From assembly GCA_963765765.1 (NCBI GenBank), contig CAVXYC010000028.1, positions 32,001-96,000 on the forward strand: 64,000 bases of DNA, given 5' to 3'. Source of the stretch: an uncultured Chloroflexia bacterium. Lineage in GTDB: Bacteria > Chloroflexota > UBA6077 > JACCZL01. The notes beneath the pieces were generated by a model. The model was given only the letters and a program-made list of their open reading frames with translations, searched no databases and was not told the DNA's origin. Positions 1,662-47,282 of the stretch are shown here, piece after piece. The translations under genes and the position numbers were made by a program. Every line of letters starts with the position of its first letter. The first letter of the stretch is position 1.

Positions 1662-2488
1662 TGACATAAACGAAAGACGTTGCTCCAGACACTCCACCCA
1701 GCATGCTCGGCAGCTGGGCCACCGCTGATCTGCTCGCGATTTCCCCACGGCCTCCAATTGTGGAGGGACTTGTCCCTGCCCGCAGCCTGACCGTCCTGAC
1801 GGGCGAAGATTCCGCCGAGCGGCCTCAACGCCGTCACAGATATCGCGTGCTGTGTAGCAAGTGGCACTCGCTATTTGCGGCACCAAGTACGTGTCGGTAC
1901 CACGGCGTCCTGCCACCTTGACGGCCGACAGACAATCAGCAAGCGGCTCATCGACTGGAGTGAAGCACATCCCAACGCTAGCCTGGCTTCCCCTGCACAT
2001 CCTCCTCGGCCCAATCTCCGTCCTCGACCGGGCGACGTTAGCAAACTACGGAAAAGTCTGGAACGTATGCCGCAGGCGCCAGAGCTTATGGTCATCGACA
2101 ACCTGCCCTTTGCGATACACCCCGGAGATGAGAGCCACACTCAGCACATGGTGGGCGCCATGATGGCCTTGGACGACCTTCGCAGCACCCTAGACTACAG
2201 TGTTCTTATGGTCCAACCACTGAGTAAAATCGGGGGAGATCCAGGGCTCCAGTGCGATCCTGGACGCCGCTAAGAGATGGTGTTGAGCGTCAACGGTGAG
2301 CATGTTTGCCGTTGGCTTGGGACCAGCCCGACCGACACATACGGCAGAACGCGAAAGCCACGTCGCAGCAGAGGTGGCAAGTGACTCGACCATTGCGCAA
2401 CGAGAGAATCGTCGCGTCCGATCGGGTTCTTCGTCGGTCAAGAGTTGCGGGCAACAGCGTACTTGGAGAACCCGGGACCGAACCTGAC
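1661..2488 (+). pseudogene. Degenerate/frameshifted AAA_25 (RepA-like RecA-fold helicase) homolog
   Basis: TADLL..PPIVEGLVPARSLTVLTG N-terminal motif and LMVIDNL Walker B; Walker A not recognisable; split over several frames. Confidence 0.5.
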
Positions 2489-34747: not shown

Positions 34748-34816
34748 CGATCTGTTCCCCGGGCAGCCGACACATTGTGGTCTGGCACCAGATTCCCGGT
34801 TAAGATTCAACGCAGC

Positions 34817-35533
34817 ATGTACCGTCGCGCCCTCCCACCCGCGTTTCTTGTGGTCATTTCCTTGCTCTTTCTGGCGTGCCAGAATACGCCGCCGTCAGCT
34901 CCCACTGTGCAGGCTCCCCCCGCGGCGGCATCTCCGGTGCGTAGTCCTACGGCAGTGGCGCAGCCACCCGCGTCACCCACACAGCGGCCGATGGCATCAG
35001 GCGGCGGCACGGGACGCGATCTAGGATCTCCCGTAGCGGTCAGTGGGGGGGCCGCGGCCACAGTCGCCATTCCAAAGCCAGCCATTACGCTCGTCCCCCG
35101 CGAGCCCCCGCCGCCCTTTGTGGCGCCCGCCGATACGCCCTCTGCAGGGAATGCAAATCCAATTGGACCGTACCTCACGCCCCTTCCGAAGCCCGGTGGG
35201 CAGGGTGGCGCAGCTGGCGGAGCAGCCACTGGCGGCGCCGCAGGTGGCGCAGCGGGCGGCGCGGGTGCAACGGGCGGTGCCGGCGCAGCTGGTGGTGCCG
35301 GCGGTGCGGGCGCAGCTGGCGGAGCAGCAGCTGGTGGCGCGGGTGGAGCAGCAGGCGGTGGCGCAGGCGGAGCAGCAGCTGGCGCCGGAGCGGGTGGCGC
35401 GGGCGGAAACATCTCCGTGGCAACGGTTGGACCTGCCACACAGCTTCAACCGTTACCTGATGTCCCGTTCCCACCCACACCAACAGTGCTGCGCATAGAT
35501 CCCAACGCTGGAAACGCTGCTACAAAACGTTAG
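34817..35533 (+). CDS. Pro/Gly/Ala-rich low-complexity lipoprotein
   Basis: FLAC lipobox; ~70-aa GGAAG repeat flanked by Pro-rich segments. Confidence 0.7.
   Translation: MYRRALPPAFLVVISLLFLACQNTPPSAPTVQAPPAAASPVRSPTAVAQPPASPTQRPMASGGGTGRDLGSPVAVSGGAAATVAIPKPAITLVPREPPPPFVAPADTPSAGNANPIGPYLTPLPKPGGQGGAAGGAATGGAAGGAAGGAGATGGAGAAGGAGGAGAAGGAAAGGAGGAAGGGAGGAAAGAGAGGAGGNISVATVGPATQLQPLPDVPFPPTPTVLRIDPNAGNAATKR
35195..35408 (+). repeat. Coding low-complexity (GGA/GGAA)n repeat
   Basis: Degenerate GGCGGCGCAGCT-type units with third-position variation. Confidence 0.8.
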
Positions 35534-37214: not shown

Positions 37215-37592
37215 ATGTCGACCGTGCTCATTGTCGAAGACGATCAGGAGATCCGCGAGCTCATTGGTGATGTGCTAATGCTCGAGGGATTTACCGTTCA
37301 TTCGATGGCGCGGTTGCCGCATGGCTTGGACCGCATCCGAAACATCGAGCCGGACGTTATTGTGCTCGATCTCGGCCTGCCAGGCATCGGTGGCATCGAG
37401 CTCATGAGGATCATCAAAGAGGATCCGAAACTGGGCTCGATCCCAATCGTTATCTGTAGCGGTGCCGTCGACACCATTCAAGCTCACCGCCAGGAGTTCG
37501 AGGATTTCGGAATACCGGTAGTCCGAAAACCGTTTCACCTCGAGCAGCTTTTGGAAGCGGTGAGAAACCCCGTTCGCACAGCAAGCGACTGA
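37215..37592 (+). CDS. Single-domain response regulator (receiver)
   Basis: IVEDD, VLDLGLP, RKPF. Confidence 0.92.
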   Translation: MSTVLIVEDDQEIRELIGDVLMLEGFTVHSMARLPHGLDRIRNIEPDVIVLDLGLPGIGGIELMRIIKEDPKLGSIPIVICSGAVDTIQAHRQEFEDFGIPVVRKPFHLEQLLEAVRNPVRTASD

Positions 37593-37647
37593 ATCGGTTC
37601 TGATAATGCCCAACTCCGGCACACCTCTGGTGGCGTGCGCGACAGGA

Positions 37648-38949
37648 ATGTCGCGTACCCTTTTCTGGCGCGCCTTTCTCTCCTTCATTACTGTAATCGC
37701 GGTCACGCTTATGAGCGGGCCCCCGGCGAGTGGACTGGCCGCGGAAGATTCATTTCCTTACTGGGTTAAAACGATTCGAGAAGCACGTCTGTGGGACGGT
37801 GCCGACGCAAAAGCCAAGTCTCGCGTCTCGATTCCCGCGGAATCTTACTTTGCGGTTACAGGCCCTGTTAGCAAGGGTAGACTGCCCGTTGTGGAGCTCA
37901 CAACTCAGCGAAACGGCTTCTTGAATGCGGACGACGTGGAGCGTGGAGCCCCACCGCCTGAACCAGCGAGCGTTGTCGCACCGACCACTGCGTCGCCAGA
38001 TCTGTCGTCGCCTCCGGCTCCCTCGGCGTCACCTGTCGCATCTCCAGTCCCCGCGACATCCGGATCGGCTCCCGCGTCTGCGTCATCTGCGCCACTCTGG
38101 GTATCAAACCATTCGCCCGCGCCACTATGGACCGGTAGCGGCGACAAGGCATTGCCGCTAGGCGTCGCCGAGCCCGGTCACTGGTTCAAGGTTGTGGAGC
38201 CTCAGCGCGGCCCGCGACTACGGGTCGTGGAGCGCTTGGCTGACAAAGAGATGTACGTTGATGCGTCAGCCGTCGGCCCGGTCGGGGAGCCCAGCGGGCC
38301 CTCGGTACTGGGCAAATGGTGGGGCAAAGTTGGACTTGACGGAATAAACGTCCGCTCCGCGCCAGATACACGGAGCACTGTAATCGGTCAGCTCACGGCC
38401 GGCACTCCGGTAGCTGTCGATGCCTGGGTTGAAGGAACAGACGTCTTTGGCGATCAGCCAGGTTGGGCTAAGCTCGGAAATGACGCCTACATTTATGGGC
38501 CACTGCTTCGTCGAATCGACCTGGGGGCGCCGCCTCCGCCGGCCAAGGCGCCCACACAGGGCAAATGGATCGACGTGAACATCACCCTTCAAGTTATGAC
38601 GGCGTATGAAGGTACGGTACCGGTGTACTGGACCGTGACGTCGGGGGGACGTCCTGGATGGGAGACCGCGGTCGGGAATCATCGAATCCTCTATCGAAGA
38701 GAAGTGGAAACTATGGAAAGCAATCGATTGCTTTCCGTTGATGCGGCGCGCGCGAGCTATCGGGTGGAAAATGTGAAATACACGCAGTACTTCACGAACG
38801 ACGGACAGGCAATTCACGAGAATTACTGGCGTGATCCGGAGCTTTTTGGGATACCCTCCAGTCACGGATGCCTGGGCCTCGCACTGGATGACGCGAAATG
38901 GTTTTGGGATTGGGGTCAGAACGGAATACCAGTAATCGTGCACGTCTGA
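37648..38949 (+). CDS. L,D-transpeptidase with SH3-like domains
   Basis: Signal peptide, INVRSAP SH3b motif, AIHENYW...SHGC YkuD motif. Confidence 0.92.
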   Translation: MSRTLFWRAFLSFITVIAVTLMSGPPASGLAAEDSFPYWVKTIREARLWDGADAKAKSRVSIPAESYFAVTGPVSKGRLPVVELTTQRNGFLNADDVERGAPPPEPASVVAPTTASPDLSSPPAPSASPVASPVPATSGSAPASASSAPLWVSNHSPAPLWTGSGDKALPLGVAEPGHWFKVVEPQRGPRLRVVERLADKEMYVDASAVGPVGEPSGPSVLGKWWGKVGLDGINVRSAPDTRSTVIGQLTAGTPVAVDAWVEGTDVFGDQPGWAKLGNDAYIYGPLLRRIDLGAPPPPAKAPTQGKWIDVNITLQVMTAYEGTVPVYWTVTSGGRPGWETAVGNHRILYRREVETMESNRLLSVDAARASYRVENVKYTQYFTNDGQAIHENYWRDPELFGIPSSHGCLGLALDDAKWFWDWGQNGIPVIVHV

Positions 38950-39032: not shown

Positions 39033-39731
39033 ATGCCAAAGAGACGTGTGTTGGTCGTGGACGACGACGAGAACATCGTCAGACTCGTTACGATGTATCT
39101 CGAGAAGGATGGGTACCGGGTCGACGCCACATTCGACGGTCGGGATGCGCTAACTCAGTTCCGTCGCACCAAGCCCGACATCGTCGTTCTTGACCTCATG
39201 CTTCCGGAGATTGACGGACTCAGCGTATGTCGCACAATTCGCGAGCAGTCGGACGTGCCAATCATCATGCTCACCGCTCGCACCACGGAAGGCGATAAGC
39301 TCATAGGCTTGGATCAGGGCGCGGATGACTACGTCACGAAGCCGTTTAGTCCCCGTGAGCTACTGGCGAGGATTCGGGCTGTACTACGCAGAGTTCCCGG
39401 TGAAGAGTCGCCCGGCCCAGTAGAGCTTCGACACGGCGATCTTGTGCTCAACCTGCGGGAACACGTCGCATACGTTCGAGGCGACCAAATCCCGCTGACA
39501 CCAACCGAATTTAGTCTTCTTCAGTCCATGCTGCAATCGCCGGGTCAGGCATTCACTCGCGGTCAACTCATCGAAAGCGCCTTCGGGCACGACTTCGATG
39601 GATTCGAGCGCAACGTCGACGTCCACATCAACAGTCTTCGGAAGAAAATAGAGCCGCTCCCCGGGGAGCCAAGCTACATCAAAACCGTCTACGGTGTCGG
39701 TTACAAGCTTGATGCCCGGGTCCATGCATAA
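39033..39731 (+). CDS. OmpR/PhoB-family response regulator
   Basis: Receiver plus winged helix (LTPTEF, VDVHI, IKTVYGVGY). Confidence 0.96.
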   Translation: MPKRRVLVVDDDENIVRLVTMYLEKDGYRVDATFDGRDALTQFRRTKPDIVVLDLMLPEIDGLSVCRTIREQSDVPIIMLTARTTEGDKLIGLDQGADDYVTKPFSPRELLARIRAVLRRVPGEESPGPVELRHGDLVLNLREHVAYVRGDQIPLTPTEFSLLQSMLQSPGQAFTRGQLIESAFGHDFDGFERNVDVHINSLRKKIEPLPGEPSYIKTVYGVGYKLDARVHA

Positions 39732-42700
39732 GCAGCTCTGGTTCCGACTACTCCTTGGCTCGTCGTTCATTCTCAGTGTTGCCCTGGCCACCGCGGGGCT
39801 GGTGCTCCATCAATCGACGACATCAAGTTTTGAGGATTATGTCGAGGACGTATCGGCTGCGCGGTCGCAGCGAATTGAAGCACTGCTGAGTCGCTACTAC
39901 AGTCGTCGTCAAGATTGGAACGGAGTCGATCCTCTCGTTGCACAGATTGCGGACCTCGTGGGTCAGCCGGTGGTCCTCGCCGACTCGCGCGACGTCATCA
40001 TCGTCGACAGTCAAAGTCAGCTAAATGGCCAGCGCGTTCGCGAAAACTGGCGCCATCAGGTAGTCCCTATCCGCTCGGGGGACGTCGCGGTCGGCACTCT
40101 CTATATCGATCCTCTGCACGCACCCAGCAAGCTTGGTGCCCGCGGCGACGCGTTCGTCTCCGAGCTAAGCGCATCACTCCTCTCCGCCCTTGGAGTTGGC
40201 CTTCTCGCCGCACTGGCGGTCAGCCTTTTAGTTGCGCGCCATCTTGCTCTTCCACTGGAAACACTTACCGGCGCGGTTCGGCGCCTCGAAGCGGGCGAGC
40301 GCAGCTCACACATGGATGCGAGCATGGGAGGTGAAGTCGGAGCCCTCGCTGTCGCGTTCAATTCACTCGTCGATTCACTTGGGCGCGTTGAGCGATTACG
40401 CTCCAACATGGTTAACGATATCGCGCACGAGCTTCGAACGCCGCTCACCACGATCCGTGGCTACGTCGAGGCTTTCCAGGATGGAGTCGCGGAGCCCACA
40501 CCGGAGATCCTTGATCTCCTCTTCGGCGAGCTCATGCAGCTCACGCGTCTCATCGATGACCTACGTGATATTGCGCTTGCAGAAGCGGGTCAGCTCCATC
40601 TTTCACCAGAACTCACATCTGTCGAGGCGCTCATCAGACACGACGTTCGCGCTGTCGCAGTGGCTGCGGCAGAACAAGAGCTGAGGGTTAGCACAAGCAT
40701 TCCTTCAGATATTCCAAGCATCTGGGTAGACGCAGGGAGATTCAGCCAGGCGCTTCGCAATCTTCTCAATAACGCGGTTGCTCATACACCTCGCGGCGGA
40801 CATGTCTCAGTGATCGCGGAGCACGACGGCAATGACGTAGTGATTCATGTCCAAGATACGGGGCCCGGCATTCCGGCTGAGGATCTCCCACACGTGTTCG
40901 AGCGTTTCTATCGAGGCGATCGATCCCGCTCCAGGCGTGCTGGCGGGAACGGACTAGGACTGACTATCACGCGTGAGCTTGTCTCAGCCCACCATGGCAC
41001 GCTGAGTGTCGCGAGTGAGCCCGGAAAAGGGGCTCGCTTCACTATCCGCCTGCCCATTCGACCACCCGTGACGGTAGAGCCTGCATCCGTCGATGCGCCT
41101 GTCGGAGCGCGCGTCGCGACTGGTTGGCGGCGTGCTACGAACACCGCGCGCTTGGTGTTCTACGCACTCATGTGCGGGGGACTTGCGGGCATGGTGGGTG
41201 GCATGGCTGAATCCCTGCTCGTCGCGATCGCGACGCGTCGGCCCTTGGACACCCTGGGATTGGCGTCTTACGCAATAGTCATCGATGCGATAGTAATTGG
41301 CGGTGTCTGCGCAATGCTGGCGCTCATCTATGGGCTCGTCGCGAGCGGCTTGGGCCACGTGCCACGATTTCGCGATCTCGCACCCGTTATTGGCGCCACC
41401 GGGATTCTCGCCGTTGGTTCCGTCCTTGCGCTTAAGTGGACCCAGCTTACTGCTCGTGATGCGACAATTCCAAATGCGATCACCGGGCAACTTCTCATCG
41501 TGGTCGGAACACTTCTGGTAGCCGTTGTAACGTTCGCCGCACTCTCGACATCTGCACGTTGGCCTCATCGGCCAGTGCTAGTGACTCGACGAGCGGTCCC
41601 TGCTCTCGCAATGACGATCGGATTGATAGCCCTGTTCGGGATCATGCGTGATCTCGCCGATCGGGGTTTCGAGACCCCAATGGCTGTCATGCAAGTGCTT
41701 CGCGACGCCACAACTCGTGAAAGCACTACAGACACAGGCACGGGTGCCACTGCCGCGGTGGCGAGCAACCTGCAGGCGGGTGTGCGCCCCAACGTACTAC
41801 TTGTGAGCGTGGACGCCCTTCGCGCCGATCACCTCGGTGCATATGGCTATAGCGCCGGCAAAACACCAGCGATGGACAGCCTCGCTCGCGAAGGCTGGAT
41901 GAGCGAGCTTGCCATCACTCCGCGTGCCGGCAGCTCCGCCTCTCACGCATCAATCATGACCGGCACCAGCCCGGAAAGGCACGGCATCAGGTCAGACTTG
42001 CTCGACACGCTCGCTCATGACGTTCCGACGCTCGCCGAGATCATGCACGCAAACGGCTATACAACCACCGGGCTCTATAGCTGGTTCAACTTTGAGCCGT
42101 CATACTCCGGGCTTGACCGCGGCTTCCAAACCTATGAGGACTACACGATCAACCTACCTCGGTACCTCGCCGACTCTCGAACTCAAGCGCTGGCGGCCAC
42201 TTACCGGCGACTGAAATCATATCTTGCCCTGCCAGGTGCTGCCGATTTCGACCTCTCGCAACTGGACGGAAGCGAGGGCAATTTGGACGGCAAAGCTGAC
42301 ATTACAGCCTCGGCGGCAGCCCGATGGCTCGAGCGCAGGCGCACCGATCCGTTTTTCCTGTGGGTGCATTTCAGAGATCCGCAATCACCGTATTCGGCGC
42401 CTCTTTCATCAGCTGAAGGAACAGATTGCGCTGACTGCCATGAGCGTTCGCTGGAGGTCTTGCAGCGAATTCGTGAAGGCGCGATAGACCTTTCGGCGCC
42501 CGAGATTAATCGCGTCGTCGGCTCTTATGACGATGAAGTGAGCTTCGTTGACAGGCAGCTCAACGTGATTTTGCAACAGCTCACGCAGCTTGGTTTAGAC
42601 TCGAGTACGGTGGTCATCGTTGTGGGGTCCTACGGTCAAAGCTTTGGCGATCACGGCGCCTGGCTGGAAGGATCAACCGTCTACAATTCAGAGATTCATG

Positions 42701-43101
42701 TGCCGCTCTTGATCCGTTACCCCGCGGTTCTAGCGCCGAATCGAATAGTCCCTGAGCCGTCCAGTGTCATGGACGTAGCTCCAACGATTCTGCATCTAAC
42801 AGGGATTCCCGTTCCATCAACGATGGAAGGTCTGAGCCTGGTATCTGCGATTGACCGCTCAAAGTACGCCGACAGAATCGTTACTTCCGAGAGCCCGTAT
42901 ACAGGCTCGAGGGCGCTCATCACCGGAGGTTGGAAGCTGATTCGGGCCGCGGATGGTCAGGTCGAGCTGTACGAAGTATCAGCCGATCCAGACGAGCTAT
43001 TCGATCGTTCCGAATCGGAGCCCGAACTTGTTCGGCATCTCGTGGAGATGCTGGATCGAGGCATCGACCAACAAGCTCACGTGACGCCGTTCGGCGTCTA
43101 G
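39724..43101 (+). CDS. Sensor histidine kinase (HAMP-HisKA-HATPase) fused to 5-TM region and sulfatase-like domain
   Basis: AHELRTPL, NLLNNA, DTGPGI, GNGLGL; then PNVLLVSVDALRADHLG, SHASIMTG, FFLWVHF, ELYEVSADPDE in one uninterrupted frame. Confidence 0.88.
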   Translation: MHKQLWFRLLLGSSFILSVALATAGLVLHQSTTSSFEDYVEDVSAARSQRIEALLSRYYSRRQDWNGVDPLVAQIADLVGQPVVLADSRDVIIVDSQSQLNGQRVRENWRHQVVPIRSGDVAVGTLYIDPLHAPSKLGARGDAFVSELSASLLSALGVGLLAALAVSLLVARHLALPLETLTGAVRRLEAGERSSHMDASMGGEVGALAVAFNSLVDSLGRVERLRSNMVNDIAHELRTPLTTIRGYVEAFQDGVAEPTPEILDLLFGELMQLTRLIDDLRDIALAEAGQLHLSPELTSVEALIRHDVRAVAVAAAEQELRVSTSIPSDIPSIWVDAGRFSQALRNLLNNAVAHTPRGGHVSVIAEHDGNDVVIHVQDTGPGIPAEDLPHVFERFYRGDRSRSRRAGGNGLGLTITRELVSAHHGTLSVASEPGKGARFTIRLPIRPPVTVEPASVDAPVGARVATGWRRATNTARLVFYALMCGGLAGMVGGMAESLLVAIATRRPLDTLGLASYAIVIDAIVIGGVCAMLALIYGLVASGLGHVPRFRDLAPVIGATGILAVGSVLALKWTQLTARDATIPNAITGQLLIVVGTLLVAVVTFAALSTSARWPHRPVLVTRRAVPALAMTIGLIALFGIMRDLADRGFETPMAVMQVLRDATTRESTTDTGTGATAAVASNLQAGVRPNVLLVSVDALRADHLGAYGYSAGKTPAMDSLAREGWMSELAITPRAGSSASHASIMTGTSPERHGIRSDLLDTLAHDVPTLAEIMHANGYTTTGLYSWFNFEPSYSGLDRGFQTYEDYTINLPRYLADSRTQALAATYRRLKSYLALPGAADFDLSQLDGSEGNLDGKADITASAAARWLERRRTDPFFLWVHFRDPQSPYSAPLSSAEGTDCADCHERSLEVLQRIREGAIDLSAPEINRVVGSYDDEVSFVDRQLNVILQQLTQLGLDSSTVVIVVGSYGQSFGDHGAWLEGSTVYNSEIHVPLLIRYPAVLAPNRIVPEPSSVMDVAPTILHLTGIPVPSTMEGLSLVSAIDRSKYADRIVTSESPYTGSRALITGGWKLIRAADGQVELYEVSADPDELFDRSESEPELVRHLVEMLDRGIDQQAHVTPFGV

Positions 43102-45965: not shown

Positions 45966-46701
45966 CTAAATTCCAGCTCCAAGTAACCGGTCGGACGTGG
46001 GCCATTTGCTCCCGCCGGCCGGTTCTCGCGTTACTCCGATTGTCTCGAAGCTGCTCACGGGTCCTGGCGCCTGGATAATTGTGTAGCCGCTGCCGTCCGG
46101 ATTTGTTCGAAGCACTCCACCATCTACACGCTCGCCGTGCCCCACAAACCAGAGCTGGTAGCACTGCCCTTCGCCCAGCGGCGGAAGCTTATGCATGATC
46201 ATCCCTGAGCCGGTCTCCTCGATCTAGAAAGATGCGGCCCATCGAACCGGGTGCAGACTCACTTGCGGACATGTTCTGGATCGTCACTCTATTCGCCGCA
46301 AGCACGCCCACGATCGTGTCGTAGCGGCGGCTGAGACCTGTCAGGGTAGTTCGTTGCGTCTCGAGGTCGTTATTGAGTTTGATCGACCAAGCCAAAGAGA
46401 CCGCTGCGATACCCGCGGCGGCCGCCATCATCCACTGAGACCAGCGGGTAGACGCGCTGGAAGCTGGACGGCGGTCGACGCTCCGAGCCGCCTCTGCCAT
46501 GATGACCTGCCGCAGCGACCGAGGGGGATCTCGTTCTCCCATTCCCAGGGCCAGAACACTTAGCCCCTCGAGATAGTCTCCGGCGGTGCTGGCGCAATCC
46601 GGACAACCCCGCATGTGGGCCAGAATCTCAAGCCGCTCATCTTCGTCCGGACTGCCTATCGCGAACGCATCTAGGCGATCTTCAAACTCGCACTGACTCA
46701 A
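45966..46701 (-). CDS. RskA-like anti-sigma factor (frameshift ~46220)
   Basis: HxxxCxxC ZAS motif, TM helix, YQLW and VTREPAGGS..PT. Confidence 0.9.
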
Positions 46702-47282
46702 AGAGTCTCCTCCAATGCCAGCGGTTCGAGTATAGTTCGCAGCTTGCGCATGGCCAGACGCGTGCGCGTCTTGATGGTTCCAAGTGGCTCGCCCAGATAC
46801 TCTGCAATTTGCGTCTGAGTCATTCCTCGTATGTAGGCCAGCTCGAGTGCTACTCGTTGCGCATCGGGTAGGCTCGCCAGGGCACGGCTCACCTCATCTC
46901 TCCGGATTGAACCGTCCAGTAGTGTTCCCGGGTCTCCGCCAACACCAGAGTGCTCAACGGGATCCACGCCTTCCGCCTCGTGCCTTCGTTCAAGGGTTCG
47001 ACGCCGAAGCCAGTCGATTGCTCGGTGGTGAGCCATGCCCAATAACCAGGGCGTCACCCTGCCCTTCTCAGGGGCGTAAAGCTCTGGTTGTCGCCACAGC
47101 TTGAGGAAGCACTCCTGGACGATGTCCTCGGCGACGTGTGCATCCCCGACGAGACGCACGGCAAGTGCATAGATGGATCGGGAATACCGTGCATACAGGA
47201 CTTCGAGGGCATCGACATCTCTCGTGCGGAGCCTGCCAACGAGGAATTCGTCGCTCGCTCCTGAGTCCCGATACGATTGCAC
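46698..47282 (-). CDS. ECF RNA polymerase sigma factor (SigK-like)
   Basis: AEDIVQECF, AIDWLR, PLGTIKTR; coupled to the anti-sigma gene. Confidence 0.95.
   Translation of the reverse strand: MQSYRDSGASDEFLVGRLRTRDVDALEVLYARYSRSIYALAVRLVGDAHVAEDIVQECFLKLWRQPELYAPEKGRVTPWLLGMAHHRAIDWLRRRTLERRHEAEGVDPVEHSGVGGDPGTLLDGSIRRDEVSRALASLPDAQRVALELAYIRGMTQTQIAEYLGEPLGTIKTRTRLAMRKLRTILEPLALEETL

What the first reader, a model, noticed from the sequence alone, without database searches (positions are those of the whole stretch)
39724..43101. Histidine kinase fused C-terminally to a 5-TM + catalytically degenerate sulfatase domain: candidate dual-sensor or pseudo-enzyme signalling system
Seen: one uninterrupted ~1125-aa frame. 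It holds a complete BaeS-like kinase (2 TM, HAMP, H/N/G boxes intact, to ~41060), about five hydrophobic helices (~41150-41650), then an alkaline-phosphatase-superfamily sulfatase fold (~41785-43101). Known: these enzymes usually carry a (T/S)DHG metal-ligand motif, an HxxDPHxPY motif and a C/S/T-x-P-x-R/H nucleophile motif. Here they read VGSYGQ (42622-42639), HFRDPQSPY (42367-42393) and SSASH. These are substitutions, not indels, so they are unlikely to be read errors. Inference: an odd helix count after a cytoplasmic HATPase puts the domain outside, as in LtaS/EptA. A dead hydrolase could act as a second ligand sensor or envelope-polymer binder that tethers the kinase at both ends. I do not know a characterised kinase with this architecture.
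Basis: partly seen in the sequence, partly recalled or inferred. Interest (0 to 1): 0.85.

Follow-up and report, generated by a model that had tools for sequence, protein, structure and literature searches.

The report
Kinase fused to dead enzyme domain
A Chloroflexota bacterium's membrane sensor kinase has absorbed the neighbouring cell-envelope enzyme gene, and that enzyme's active site has since decayed, so a former enzyme probably now serves the kinase as a second sensing or regulatory module.

Summary
Window 39724-43101 (+) is one 1125-aa frame: TM1, sensor loop, TM2, HAMP, HisKA, HATPase_c, a disordered linker, five TM helices, then a PF00884 (sulfatase / alkaline-phosphatase-superfamily) ectodomain.

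The fusion is not an artefact. I found 22 full-length fused homologues at 37-76% identity. Fused open frames occur in 8 of 10 genomes of the window's own family.

In a sister family the same parts are separate adjacent genes: RR, HK, 5TM-enzyme, flippase-like protein, GT4 glycosyltransferase.

The right comparison is a Thr-nucleophile enzyme family, not Cys-type sulfatases. All 44 unfused relatives keep six core active-site residues. Only 2 of 28 verified fused proteins do, and the query keeps 2 of 6. Different clades lost different residues.

The dead domain is still under purifying selection. The flippase-like partner was not found in 0 of 10 family genomes.

Best reading (0.55): an operon enzyme was captured by its kinase and converted into a non-catalytic regulatory or sensory module, analogous to YejM/PbgA. 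No publication of this architecture was found in three searches. I rate it a new variant of a known kind. The function is inferred, not shown.

The parts
39033..39731 (+). OmpR/PhoB-type response regulator (232 aa), the cognate partner. Its stop overlaps the kinase ATG by 8 nt.
   Evidence: Pfam Response_reg 8.7e-32 and Trans_reg_C 2.4e-25. The overlap is read. This gene is conserved next to the kinase in G001, G005 and G007 at 62-87% identity.
39724..43101 (+). The whole fused gene, 1125 aa plus stop.
   Evidence: 22 full-length fused homologues.
39733..39810 (+). TM1 (aa 4-29).
   Evidence: Hydropathy segment 4-29.
39811..40149 (+). N-terminal extracytoplasmic sensor loop (aa 30-142). It is a small helix plus four-strand domain with no family match.
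   Evidence: AF2 pLDDT is 80-87 over aa 50-130, with H69-79 and strands 83-87, 91-95, 112-118 and 121-128. 13 columns are invariant in the 23 fused proteins, for example F36, Y39, R50, W65, D77, G124 and Y127. There is no significant Pfam hit; best E is 0.06, far below the curated cut-off.
40150..40227 (+). TM2 (aa 143-168).
   Evidence: Hydropathy segment 143-179.
40228..40380 (+). HAMP domain (aa 169-219).
   Evidence: Pfam PF00672, E 6.7e-9.
40399..40590 (+). HisKA/DHp (aa 226-289) with the phospho-acceptor H235 (nt 40426-40428).
   Evidence: Pfam PF00512, E 3.7e-15. D232, A234, H235, E236, L237, R238, T239 and P240 are invariant in 23 of 23.
40729..41061 (+). HATPase_c catalytic domain (aa 336-446) with N, G1, F and G2 boxes intact.
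   Evidence: Pfam PF02518, E 6.6e-33. N346, N350, D378, G380, G382, F392, G408, G410 and G412 are invariant.
41062..41121 (+). Disordered, poorly conserved linker (aa 447-466) between the kinase and the second membrane module.
   Evidence: pLDDT is below 50 at 450-465. aa 448-477 are only 27% identical to the same-genus orthologue, pN 0.58. The DNA has no long homopolymer and no nearby stop.
41122..41661 (+). Five-helix transmembrane module (aa 467-646) with conserved membrane-embedded G489, G493, E496 and D521.
   Evidence: Helices, hydropathy. G489 and E496 are invariant in fused proteins (30/30 and 29/29) and unfused proteins (23/23). D521 is 30/30 fused and 15/21 unfused. No PDB hit, and only a chance-level Pfam match at E 7.8.
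41662..41787 (+). Juxtamembrane linker (aa 647-688).
   Evidence: Low pLDDT at 648-673. 43% identity to the same-genus orthologue.
41788..43098 (+). Extracytoplasmic alkaline-phosphatase-superfamily (PF00884 + SGSH_C) domain (aa 689-1125) with a degenerate active site. D697 (41812-41814) is kept. S737..H741 (41932-41946) is Thr->Ser. D885-P-Q887 (42376-42384) is His->Gln. S969-Y970 (42628-42633) replaces Asp-His. E982 (42667-42669) replaces His.
   Evidence: Pfam. AF2 pLDDT is mostly above 90. Foldseek best hit is 7oz8, E 1.1e-21, TM 0.70.
37215..38949 (+). Context only, membership uncertain: a receiver-only protein (37215-37592) and a YkuD L,D-transpeptidase with an SH3 domain (37606-38949). 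Both are on the same strand, 13 nt from each other and 83 nt from the regulator gene.
   Evidence: Pfam. No counterpart of either was found upstream in G005 or G007; in G001 the contig ends about 200 nt upstream of the regulator.

Best explanation
Shown:
- The gene encodes a seven-TM two-component sensor kinase. Its orthodox kinase core (H235 and the N/G1/F/G2 boxes) is translationally coupled to an OmpR-type regulator.
- The kinase is followed in the same polypeptide by a five-helix membrane module and an extracytoplasmic alkaline-phosphatase-superfamily domain.
- The fusion is conserved across one Chloroflexota family.
- It arose from an operon that still exists unfused in a sister family: RR, HK, 5TM-enzyme, flippase-like protein, GT4 glycosyltransferase.
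- In fused proteins the enzyme's metal and nucleophile residues have decayed, in different ways in different clades, while the domain as a whole stays under purifying selection.
- The flippase-like partner was not found in the family's genomes.

Inferred:
- The ancestral enzyme was an envelope lipid or glycolipid-modifying transferase or hydrolase controlled by this two-component system.
- After fusion its chemistry became dispensable.
- The module was kept as a hard-wired accessory, or second input, of the kinase.
- It most likely binds a membrane or envelope lipid or polymer through the conserved TM pocket (E496, D521) and the old active-site cleft.
- It would influence the kinase/phosphatase balance laterally, by TM-TM or ectodomain-sensor-loop contacts. 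A rigid helix is unlikely, because the connecting linker is disordered and unconserved.
For: Architecture.

The fusion is real and conserved:
- 21 full-length fused proteins, plus P0122. All carry the kinase part.
- Fused open frames of 1134-1283 aa occur in 7 of 9 other genomes of family f1, plus G000.
- In a 401-genome phylum sample, fused frames were seen only in f1: 5 of 5 plus G000. The one other long frame (G391) is not a kinase.

Origin from an operon:
- G029: RR-HK-AP-flippase-like-GT4.
- G018: the same, with one extra ORF.
- G031, G033, G026: RR-HK-(REC)-AP, up to the contig end.

Catalytic decay:
- D697, T/S737, H887, D969, H970 and H982 are kept 6/6 in all 44 unfused relatives.
- They are kept in only P0024 and P0015 among 35 fused-clade rows (28 with a verified kinase part).
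- The query keeps 2 of 6.
- Clade A lost D969, H970 and H982. Clade C lost D697 and H982, and mostly carries Arg at the nucleophile position.

Purifying selection against the same-genus orthologue:
- AP domain: pN 0.173 against pS 0.759, 73% identity.
- Kinase core: 78% identity.
- Linker: 27% identity.

TM polar residues are conserved in both fused and unfused forms.

Partner pathway: the flippase-like protein was found in 0 of 10 f1 genomes at E<=1e-15, against 5 of 8 in f4, 1 of 1 in f5 and 1 of 1 in f7. G000's best hit is 29% identical.

Precedent: YejM/PbgA has 5 TM helices plus an arylsulfatase-family periplasmic domain without properly placed catalytic residues, and acts as an LPS sensor (PMC7773988, passages read).
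Against: - No binding, ligand or signalling data exist.
- The linker to the kinase is disordered and fast-evolving, so no obvious rigid coupling path exists.
- Two fused proteins (P0024, P0015) keep all six residues. Fusion alone is therefore compatible with an active output enzyme.
- Clade A keeps D697, a Ser at the nucleophile position, H741 and H977 in 7 of 7 rows. Some residual or altered chemistry cannot be excluded from sequence alone.
- I could not inspect model coordinates, so active-site geometry is untested.
- If the associated pathway is gone, it is unclear what is left to sense.
- A subclade of apparently unfused, fully intact proteins (P0031, P0034-P0038) nests among fused ones. 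The history therefore includes either a fission or more than one fusion.
- All genomes are metagenome-assembled. G000 is 91.8% complete and 6.9% contaminated.
Confidence: 0.55

Rival explanations
1. Structural relic or scaffold. The C-terminal module carries no signal. It is kept only because the kinase now depends on it for membrane insertion, stability, oligomerisation or localisation, for example to sites of envelope synthesis.
For: The linker to the kinase is disordered and unconserved. The partner pathway was not found in the family. Only three positions are both conserved in fused proteins and different in unfused ones (T808, D817, L1092), so there is little sign of a newly evolved binding surface.
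Against: The ectodomain is constrained nearly as tightly as the kinase core, at 73% against 78% identity, with pN 0.17 against saturated pS. Many ectodomain columns are invariant across fused proteins only 41-45% identical overall, including a C902/C905 pair fixed in 35 of 35 fused-clade rows against 13 of 37 unfused rows. That is more conservation than a passive anchor would need.
Confidence: 0.2
2. Still an enzyme. The protein would be a bifunctional kinase-enzyme in which the ectodomain remains the output, an envelope-modifying hydrolase or transferase, using Ser737 and substitute ligands. Fusion would serve co-expression and co-localisation, as with eptA in pmrCAB.
For: The ancestral context is an enzyme gene in the kinase's operon. 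Fused P0024 and P0015 keep 6 of 6 residues. Clade A conserves D697, S737, H741, D976 and H977. Ser is a competent nucleophile in alkaline phosphatase itself (recalled, not from a call).
Against: Two of the four positions that align with the metal ligands and nucleophile of solved sulfatases (D969, H970) are Ala/Ser and Tyr/Phe in 7 of 7 clade-A rows, and H982 is Glu. All 44 unfused relatives keep every one of these. In the sister clade the nucleophile itself is Arg, Ile, Ala and so on, which shows that chemistry is not under selection in fused proteins generally.
Confidence: 0.15
3. Assembly or sequencing artefact. Two genes were joined by a lost stop or a frameshift in this metagenome-assembled genome.
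For: The genome is a 33-contig MAG with 6.9% contamination. The linker is low-complexity.
Against: The same fusion occurs in 22 independent full-length proteins from NCBI, JGI, ENA and Logan sources and in 7 other genomes. The junction DNA has no homopolymer longer than 4. One short contig from another sample covers 41050-41200 with 2 substitutions and no gaps.
Confidence: 0.01

Closest known systems
YejM / PbgA / LapC of Enterobacteria
   Same: Both have five TM helices followed by an extracytoplasmic arylsulfatase / alkaline-phosphatase-fold domain that lacks properly placed catalytic residues and acts as a sensor or regulator of envelope lipid status (PMC7773988, passages read). The C-terminal 670 aa here have the same layout.
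   Different: There is no detectable sequence kinship. The query has no NCBIfam LapC_YejM_PbgA hit, and unfused relatives give only 32-37 bits against a cut-off of 825. The TM module has no PDB sequence hit. YejM is a stand-alone protein that acts on LapB/FtsH. Here the module is covalently fused behind a histidine kinase, in an organism with a different envelope.
pmrCAB (eptA-pmrA-pmrB) type operons
   Same: In both, a 5TM + PF00884 envelope-modifying enzyme is encoded in one operon with an OmpR-type regulator and its kinase. This matches the unfused RR-HK-AP loci of the sister family. pmrCAB is known to me from search listings and abstract starts only.
   Different: The gene order differs. 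The enzyme here resembles sulfatases more than EptA. In the window's family it is fused to the kinase and catalytically degenerate, so it can no longer be a simple output.
Lipoteichoic-acid triad YpfP-LtaA-LtaS
   Same: The logic is the same: a cytoplasmic glycosyltransferase, a glycolipid translocator, and a 5TM + PF00884 extracellular enzyme (PMC4065355, passages read). The unfused loci carry GT4, a TIGR00374 flippase-like protein and the 5TM-AP enzyme.
   Different: This is a resemblance of parts only. No LtaS model matched, and the GT and flippase belong to other families than YpfP and LtaA. Nothing is known about the polymer or lipid involved.
Type I (S1) formylglycine sulfatases
   Same: They give the best sequence and fold matches: PF00884 E 6.8e-40, 6hhm E 3.3e-26, 7oz8 Foldseek E 1.1e-21 and TM 0.70.
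   Different: There is no C/S-x-P/A-x-R motif. The wider family uses T-x-P-S-H. The query lacks four of six core residues. It also has a 5TM anchor and a kinase in front.
Kinases governed by accessory membrane proteins (for example BceS-BceAB, LiaS-LiaF, MtrB-LpqB; recalled, not from a call)
   Same: A second membrane or extracytoplasmic protein encoded in the same operon modulates the kinase.
   Different: Here the accessory is covalently attached to the C-terminus of the ATPase domain and is a former enzyme. I know of no described case, and three literature searches found none.

Membership tests
Class I two-component sensor histidine kinase (HisKA + HATPase_c) | DHp domain with the phospho-acceptor His in an H-box | tested here: met
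   PF00512 E 3.7e-15. D-I-A-H235-E-L-R-T-P is invariant in 23 of 23 fused proteins.
Class I two-component sensor histidine kinase (HisKA + HATPase_c) | ATP-binding domain with N, G1, F and G2 boxes | tested here: met
   PF02518 E 6.6e-33. N346, N350, D378, G380, G382, F392, G408, G410 and G412 are invariant.
Class I two-component sensor histidine kinase (HisKA + HATPase_c) | Adjacent cognate response regulator | tested here: met
   An OmpR-type regulator sits at 39033-39731 with an 8-nt overlap. It is conserved in G001, G005 and G007.
BaeS (NCBIfam NF012163 equivalog) | Score at or above the curated cut-off of 500 bits | tested here: not met
   240.5 bits. The sensor loop matches no family.
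Type I (S1) formylglycine sulfatase | PF00884 fold | tested here: met
Type I (S1) formylglycine sulfatase | C/S-x-P/A-x-R maturation and nucleophile motif | tested here: not met
   It reads S-S-A-S-H. The family consensus is T-x-P-S-H.
Type I (S1) formylglycine sulfatase | Metal-ligand Asp pair and the D-H/N pair | tested here: not met
   DD->DA and SDHG->GSYG in the alignment to 6hhm.
Thr-nucleophile 5TM + PF00884 enzymes (the unfused Chloroflexota relatives) | Five N-terminal TM helices with G-x3-G-x2-E, then an extracytoplasmic PF00884 domain | tested here: met
   Homology extends over the TM region to G029, G018 and G013.
Thr-nucleophile 5TM + PF00884 enzymes (the unfused Chloroflexota relatives) | Six core residues (D, T/S, H of DPH, D-H of DHG, H of xHG), kept in 44 of 44 unfused members | tested here: not met
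   The query keeps 2 of 6, D697 and S737.
LtaS / EptA-type transferases | A match to the curated family models | tested here: not met
   The query's C-terminal module has no hit at E<=1e-5. The unfused relative P0034 gives only local hits of 37-54 bits against cut-offs of 500-561.
YejM / PbgA / LapC | A match to NF038282 (cut-off 825 bits) | tested here: not met
   The query has no hit. Relatives score 32-37 bits.
YejM / PbgA / LapC | Binds LPS or cardiolipin and controls LapB/FtsH | not testable with these tools
   This needs biochemistry. I did not search for LapB or LpxC homologues.

The most novel reading that the evidence does not exclude
This family would be an enzyme-to-receptor conversion caught in its intermediate stages. 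An operon-encoded envelope enzyme (5TM + alkaline-phosphatase fold) was fused behind the ATPase domain of its own regulator kinase. It then lost its chemistry independently in several clades, and its pathway partners disappeared. It now acts as a ligand-binding pseudoenzyme receptor that reports envelope lipid or polymer status to the kinase. That would define a new class of seven-TM, two-ectodomain histidine kinases with C-terminal input.
Probability: 0.35. Interest if true: 0.75.

Novelty: new variant of a known kind. Interest (0 to 1): 0.62.

Why it matters
In textbook sensor kinases, input domains lie N-terminal to the catalytic core. C-terminal additions are receiver or HPt domains. A second membrane module and a large ectodomain placed after the ATPase domain breaks that pattern, and raises the question of how information could reach the kinase from its C-terminus.

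The family also offers a natural series for studying how an enzyme becomes a pseudoenzyme regulator:
- unfused, active-looking enzymes in the operon;
- fused proteins with an intact site (P0024, P0015);
- fused proteins with the site destroyed in at least two different ways.

It would also add a second, independent example of the YejM principle, in which a dead alkaline-phosphatase-fold domain on five TM helices monitors the envelope. This one comes from a phylum whose envelope biology is poorly known.

Tried and rejected
- Complex prediction: the kinase N-terminal part (aa 1-225) against the C-terminal module (aa 460-1125), using alignment A2. The result was 'no answer', score 0.23 below the mark of 0.32, and the controls were not run. 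This is no evidence either way.
- Public reads. No run held more than 0.23 of the sampled words, and only 151-254-nt Logan contigs were laid. One (X3) covers 41050-41200 without gaps. 41210-41311 was not covered in any of the four runs. I make no habitat claim.
- Metagenome loci for the intact fused protein P0024. Only truncated contigs came back, so I could not see whether intact fused forms still have the flippase-like and GT4 genes downstream.
- ESM Atlas. It returned only plain kinase clusters and no large cluster with the fused architecture. A blank there shows neither novelty nor absence.
- Sequence searches of the TM module and the sensor loop against PDB and Pfam found nothing significant. 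PDB had no hit at E<=10, and Pfam best E-values were 7.8 and 0.06, far below the cut-offs.
- dN/dS could not be computed because synonymous sites are saturated. Only pN and pS are reported.
- Conserved neighbours beyond the regulator were sought in G001, G005 and G007. None is shared across the family. The YkuD gene upstream in the window is therefore not claimed as part of the system.
- Earlier findings of this scan: nothing relevant.
- Literature: no paper on a kinase-sulfatase fusion. These searches cover only the held open-access library.
- The artefact hypothesis is rejected (see rival explanations).

Full report
**Observation.** The frame 39724-43101 (+) is open for 1125 codons. Pfam finds HAMP (169-219), HisKA (226-289), HATPase_c (336-446), Sulfatase PF00884 (689-1028, E 6.8e-40) and SGSH_C (975-1095). 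Hydropathy gives two N-terminal TM segments (4-29, 143-179) and five more between 476 and 646. AlphaFold2 models those five as long helices, both in a C-terminal model (aa 455-1125, 70-row alignment, pLDDT 84.0, pTM 0.76) and in a full-length model (23 rows, pLDDT 68.6, pTM 0.43). The alignment to a solved arylsulfatase shows substitutions in register: DD->DA, C..SR->S..SH, KPH->DPQ, SDHG->GSYG, K->E. The kinase is BaeS-like only, scoring 240.5 bits against a cut-off of 500. Its ATG overlaps the stop of an OmpR-type regulator gene by 8 nt.

**The fusion is real.** I searched with the C-terminal 671 aa. Among the best 120 of 567 hits, 21 were full-length proteins of 1115-1162 aa carrying HAMP, HisKA, HATPase_c and Sulfatase, at 37-70% identity. 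An exhaustive phmmer run added one more, P0122. BLAST confirmed the kinase part in all 22 and in four fragments. Sources name several of them Chloroflexota. P0003 is identical over the compared module to the same-genus genome G001. In whole genomes, fused open frames of 1134-1283 aa occur in 7 of 9 other genomes of the window's family f1. In a 401-genome phylum sample, frames that long with the TM module were seen only in f1: 5 of 5 plus G000. The one other long frame, G391, is TM + sulfatase + an unknown tail, not a kinase. That tally includes two genomes flagged unpublished (G251, G075), both as unfused matches. The junction DNA has no long homopolymer. One short contig from another sample spans 41050-41200 without gaps.

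**What the C-terminal module is.** Its best fold matches are S1 sulfatases (7oz8, E 1.1e-21, target TM 0.70) and a phosphonate monoester hydrolase. No NCBIfam model reaches its cut-off; arylsulfatase PRK13759 scores 147.6 against 481. The alignment of 121 relatives shows a Thr-type family with consensus TIDTLRAD, xTxPSHASIxTG, VHxFDPHxPY and (T/S)xDHGExLGEHGE..xHG, not a Cys-x-Pro-x-Arg sulfatase family. The TM module matches nothing in PDB or Pfam. It does carry G489, G493 and E496, with G489 and E496 invariant in fused (30/30, 29/29) and unfused (23/23) proteins alike. D521 is kept in 30 of 30 fused and 15 of 21 unfused proteins.

**Active-site decay.** Six positions align with the metal-ligand, nucleophile and general-acid positions of sulfatases. 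They are kept 6/6 in all 44 unfused relatives analysed: D697, T/S737, H887, D969, H970 and H982. The column labels S968/Y969 are shifted by one, and one search gives the corrected count. Of 35 rows in the fused clades, only P0024 and P0015 keep all six. Twenty-eight of those rows have a verified kinase part, and seven are fragments placed by the tree. The query keeps two, D697 and S737.
- Clade A (the query's clade, 7 rows) has Ser at the nucleophile position. D969 is Ala or Ser, H970 is Tyr or Phe, and H982 is Glu. DPH is kept in 5 of 7 rows, so the query's DPQ is private.
- Clade C (20 rows) has D697 replaced by Ser, Thr or Gly in 20 of 20. The nucleophile is Arg in 14. H887 is kept in 5, H982 is lost in 20 of 20, and D969 is kept in 20 of 20.

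So the site was destroyed in at least two different ways.

**Origin.** In sister family f4 the parts are separate, adjacent, co-directional genes:
- G029: RR, HK (525 aa), 5TM-AP (678 aa), LPG_synthase_TM / TIGR00374 flippase-like protein, GT4 glycosyltransferase.
- G018: the same, with one extra 218-aa ORF.
- G031 and G033: RR, HK, receiver-only gene, AP, then the contig end.
- G026: RR, HK, AP, then the contig end.
- G035: two AP copies with no kinase in the stretch held.

In G015 (f7) and G013 (f5) the AP gene sits with the GT4 and flippase-like genes but without the two-component system. The four fused loci examined (window, G001, G005, G007) have neither a flippase-like nor a GT4 gene nearby. 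The flippase-like protein was not found at E<=1e-15 in 0 of 10 f1 genomes (completeness 64-97%), against 5 of 8 in f4, 1 of 1 in f5 and 1 of 1 in f7. G000's best matches are 29% identical.

**Tree.** A quick IQ-TREE of 84 C-terminal modules puts every fused protein in one 46-row clade (SH-aLRT 93) with three fully supported subclades. I left out six multi-domain rows and three low-coverage rows. With fragments labelled 'unfused or fragment', the label needs 9 changes on the tree. Most of these are fragments. The real exception is a subclade of complete-looking unfused proteins with intact sites (P0031, P0034-P0038). That implies either a fission or more than one fusion.

**Selection.** Against the same-genus orthologue, the AP domain is 73% identical (pN 0.173, pS 0.759). 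The kinase core is 78% identical (pN 0.143) and the 5TM module 67%. The two linkers are 27% and 43% identical. Synonymous sites are saturated, so no ratio is given. The dead domain is nonetheless clearly constrained. C902 and C905 are fixed in 35 of 35 fused-clade rows against 13 of 37 unfused rows.

**Mechanism.**
- Shown: an orthodox kinase-regulator pair; a second membrane module whose odd helix count places the AP-fold domain outside the cell; loss of the catalytic set; retention of the domain under selection; origin from the operon neighbour.
- Inferred: the ancestral two-component system controlled an envelope lipid or glycolipid-modifying module made of a cytoplasmic GT4, a flippase-like protein and an extracytoplasmic 5TM-AP enzyme. 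That arrangement recalls YpfP-LtaA-LtaS (PMC4065355, passages) and enzyme-plus-TCS operons such as pmrCAB (listing only). After fusion the chemistry became dispensable and the module was kept as a built-in accessory of the kinase.

The linker after the ATPase domain is disordered and unconserved. Any signal therefore most likely passes laterally, either between the 5TM bundle and TM1/TM2 or between the two ectodomains. Alternatively the tether simply restricts the ATPase domain. The nearest functional precedent is YejM/PbgA, which has five TM helices plus an arylsulfatase-family periplasmic domain without properly placed catalytic residues and senses LPS (PMC7773988, passages). This is an analogy, not membership: the YejM model is not matched.

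**Novelty and limits.** Three full-text searches found no description of a kinase-sulfatase fusion. They cover only the held open-access library, and I could not query InterPro architectures. Only the best 150 of 98,045 phmmer hits were visible, so other kinase-PF00884 fusions elsewhere cannot be excluded. I could not read model coordinates, so metal-site geometry is untested. Function rests on inference from sequence, context and analogy.

I rate the finding a new variant of a known kind, with interest 0.62.

Noticed in passing
L018:9718-10452 (-) and L019:9419-10207 (-): In G005 and G007, a conserved protein of about 250 aa with no Pfam family lies immediately upstream of the regulator gene on the same strand. 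The two copies are 54% identical (E 6e-78). It has no counterpart at the window's locus.
   Followed up: partly
L017:3279-3698 (+); L045 about 1802-2110 (-): In the unfused operons of G031 and G033, a receiver-only gene sits between the kinase gene and the 5TM-AP gene. The window also has a receiver-only gene at 37215-37592, but upstream of the system.
   Followed up: partly
L022:949-3006 (-): In G013, the flippase-like (LPG_synthase_TM) region and the GT4 glycosyltransferase appear fused in one 686-aa frame next to the unfused 5TM-AP gene.
   Followed up: partly
L021:2586-5810 (+): G391 encodes a 1075-aa protein with an N-terminal region of about 280 aa, PF00884, and about 400 aa of unassigned C-terminal sequence. 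It lies next to a PAP2 lipid phosphatase.
   Followed up: no
window 37606-38949 (+): A YkuD L,D-transpeptidase with an SH3_3 domain and a Pro/Ser/Ala-rich linker lies 83 nt upstream of the regulator gene. It is possibly co-transcribed in this genome only.
   Followed up: partly
window 34775-35533 (+): A 252-aa Gly/Ala/Pro-rich low-complexity ORF with long overlapping ORFs on both strands. It has no Pfam family.
   Followed up: no
window 46189-47282 (-): A pair of overlapping ORFs (170 and 194 aa) that read like an anti-sigma / ECF-sigma pair, judged from the translation only. The pair is conserved in G001. Not tested against Pfam.
   Followed up: no
P0126, P0133, P0154, P0162, P0155: Several relatives of 900-1024 aa carry two PF00884 domains in tandem.
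   Followed up: no
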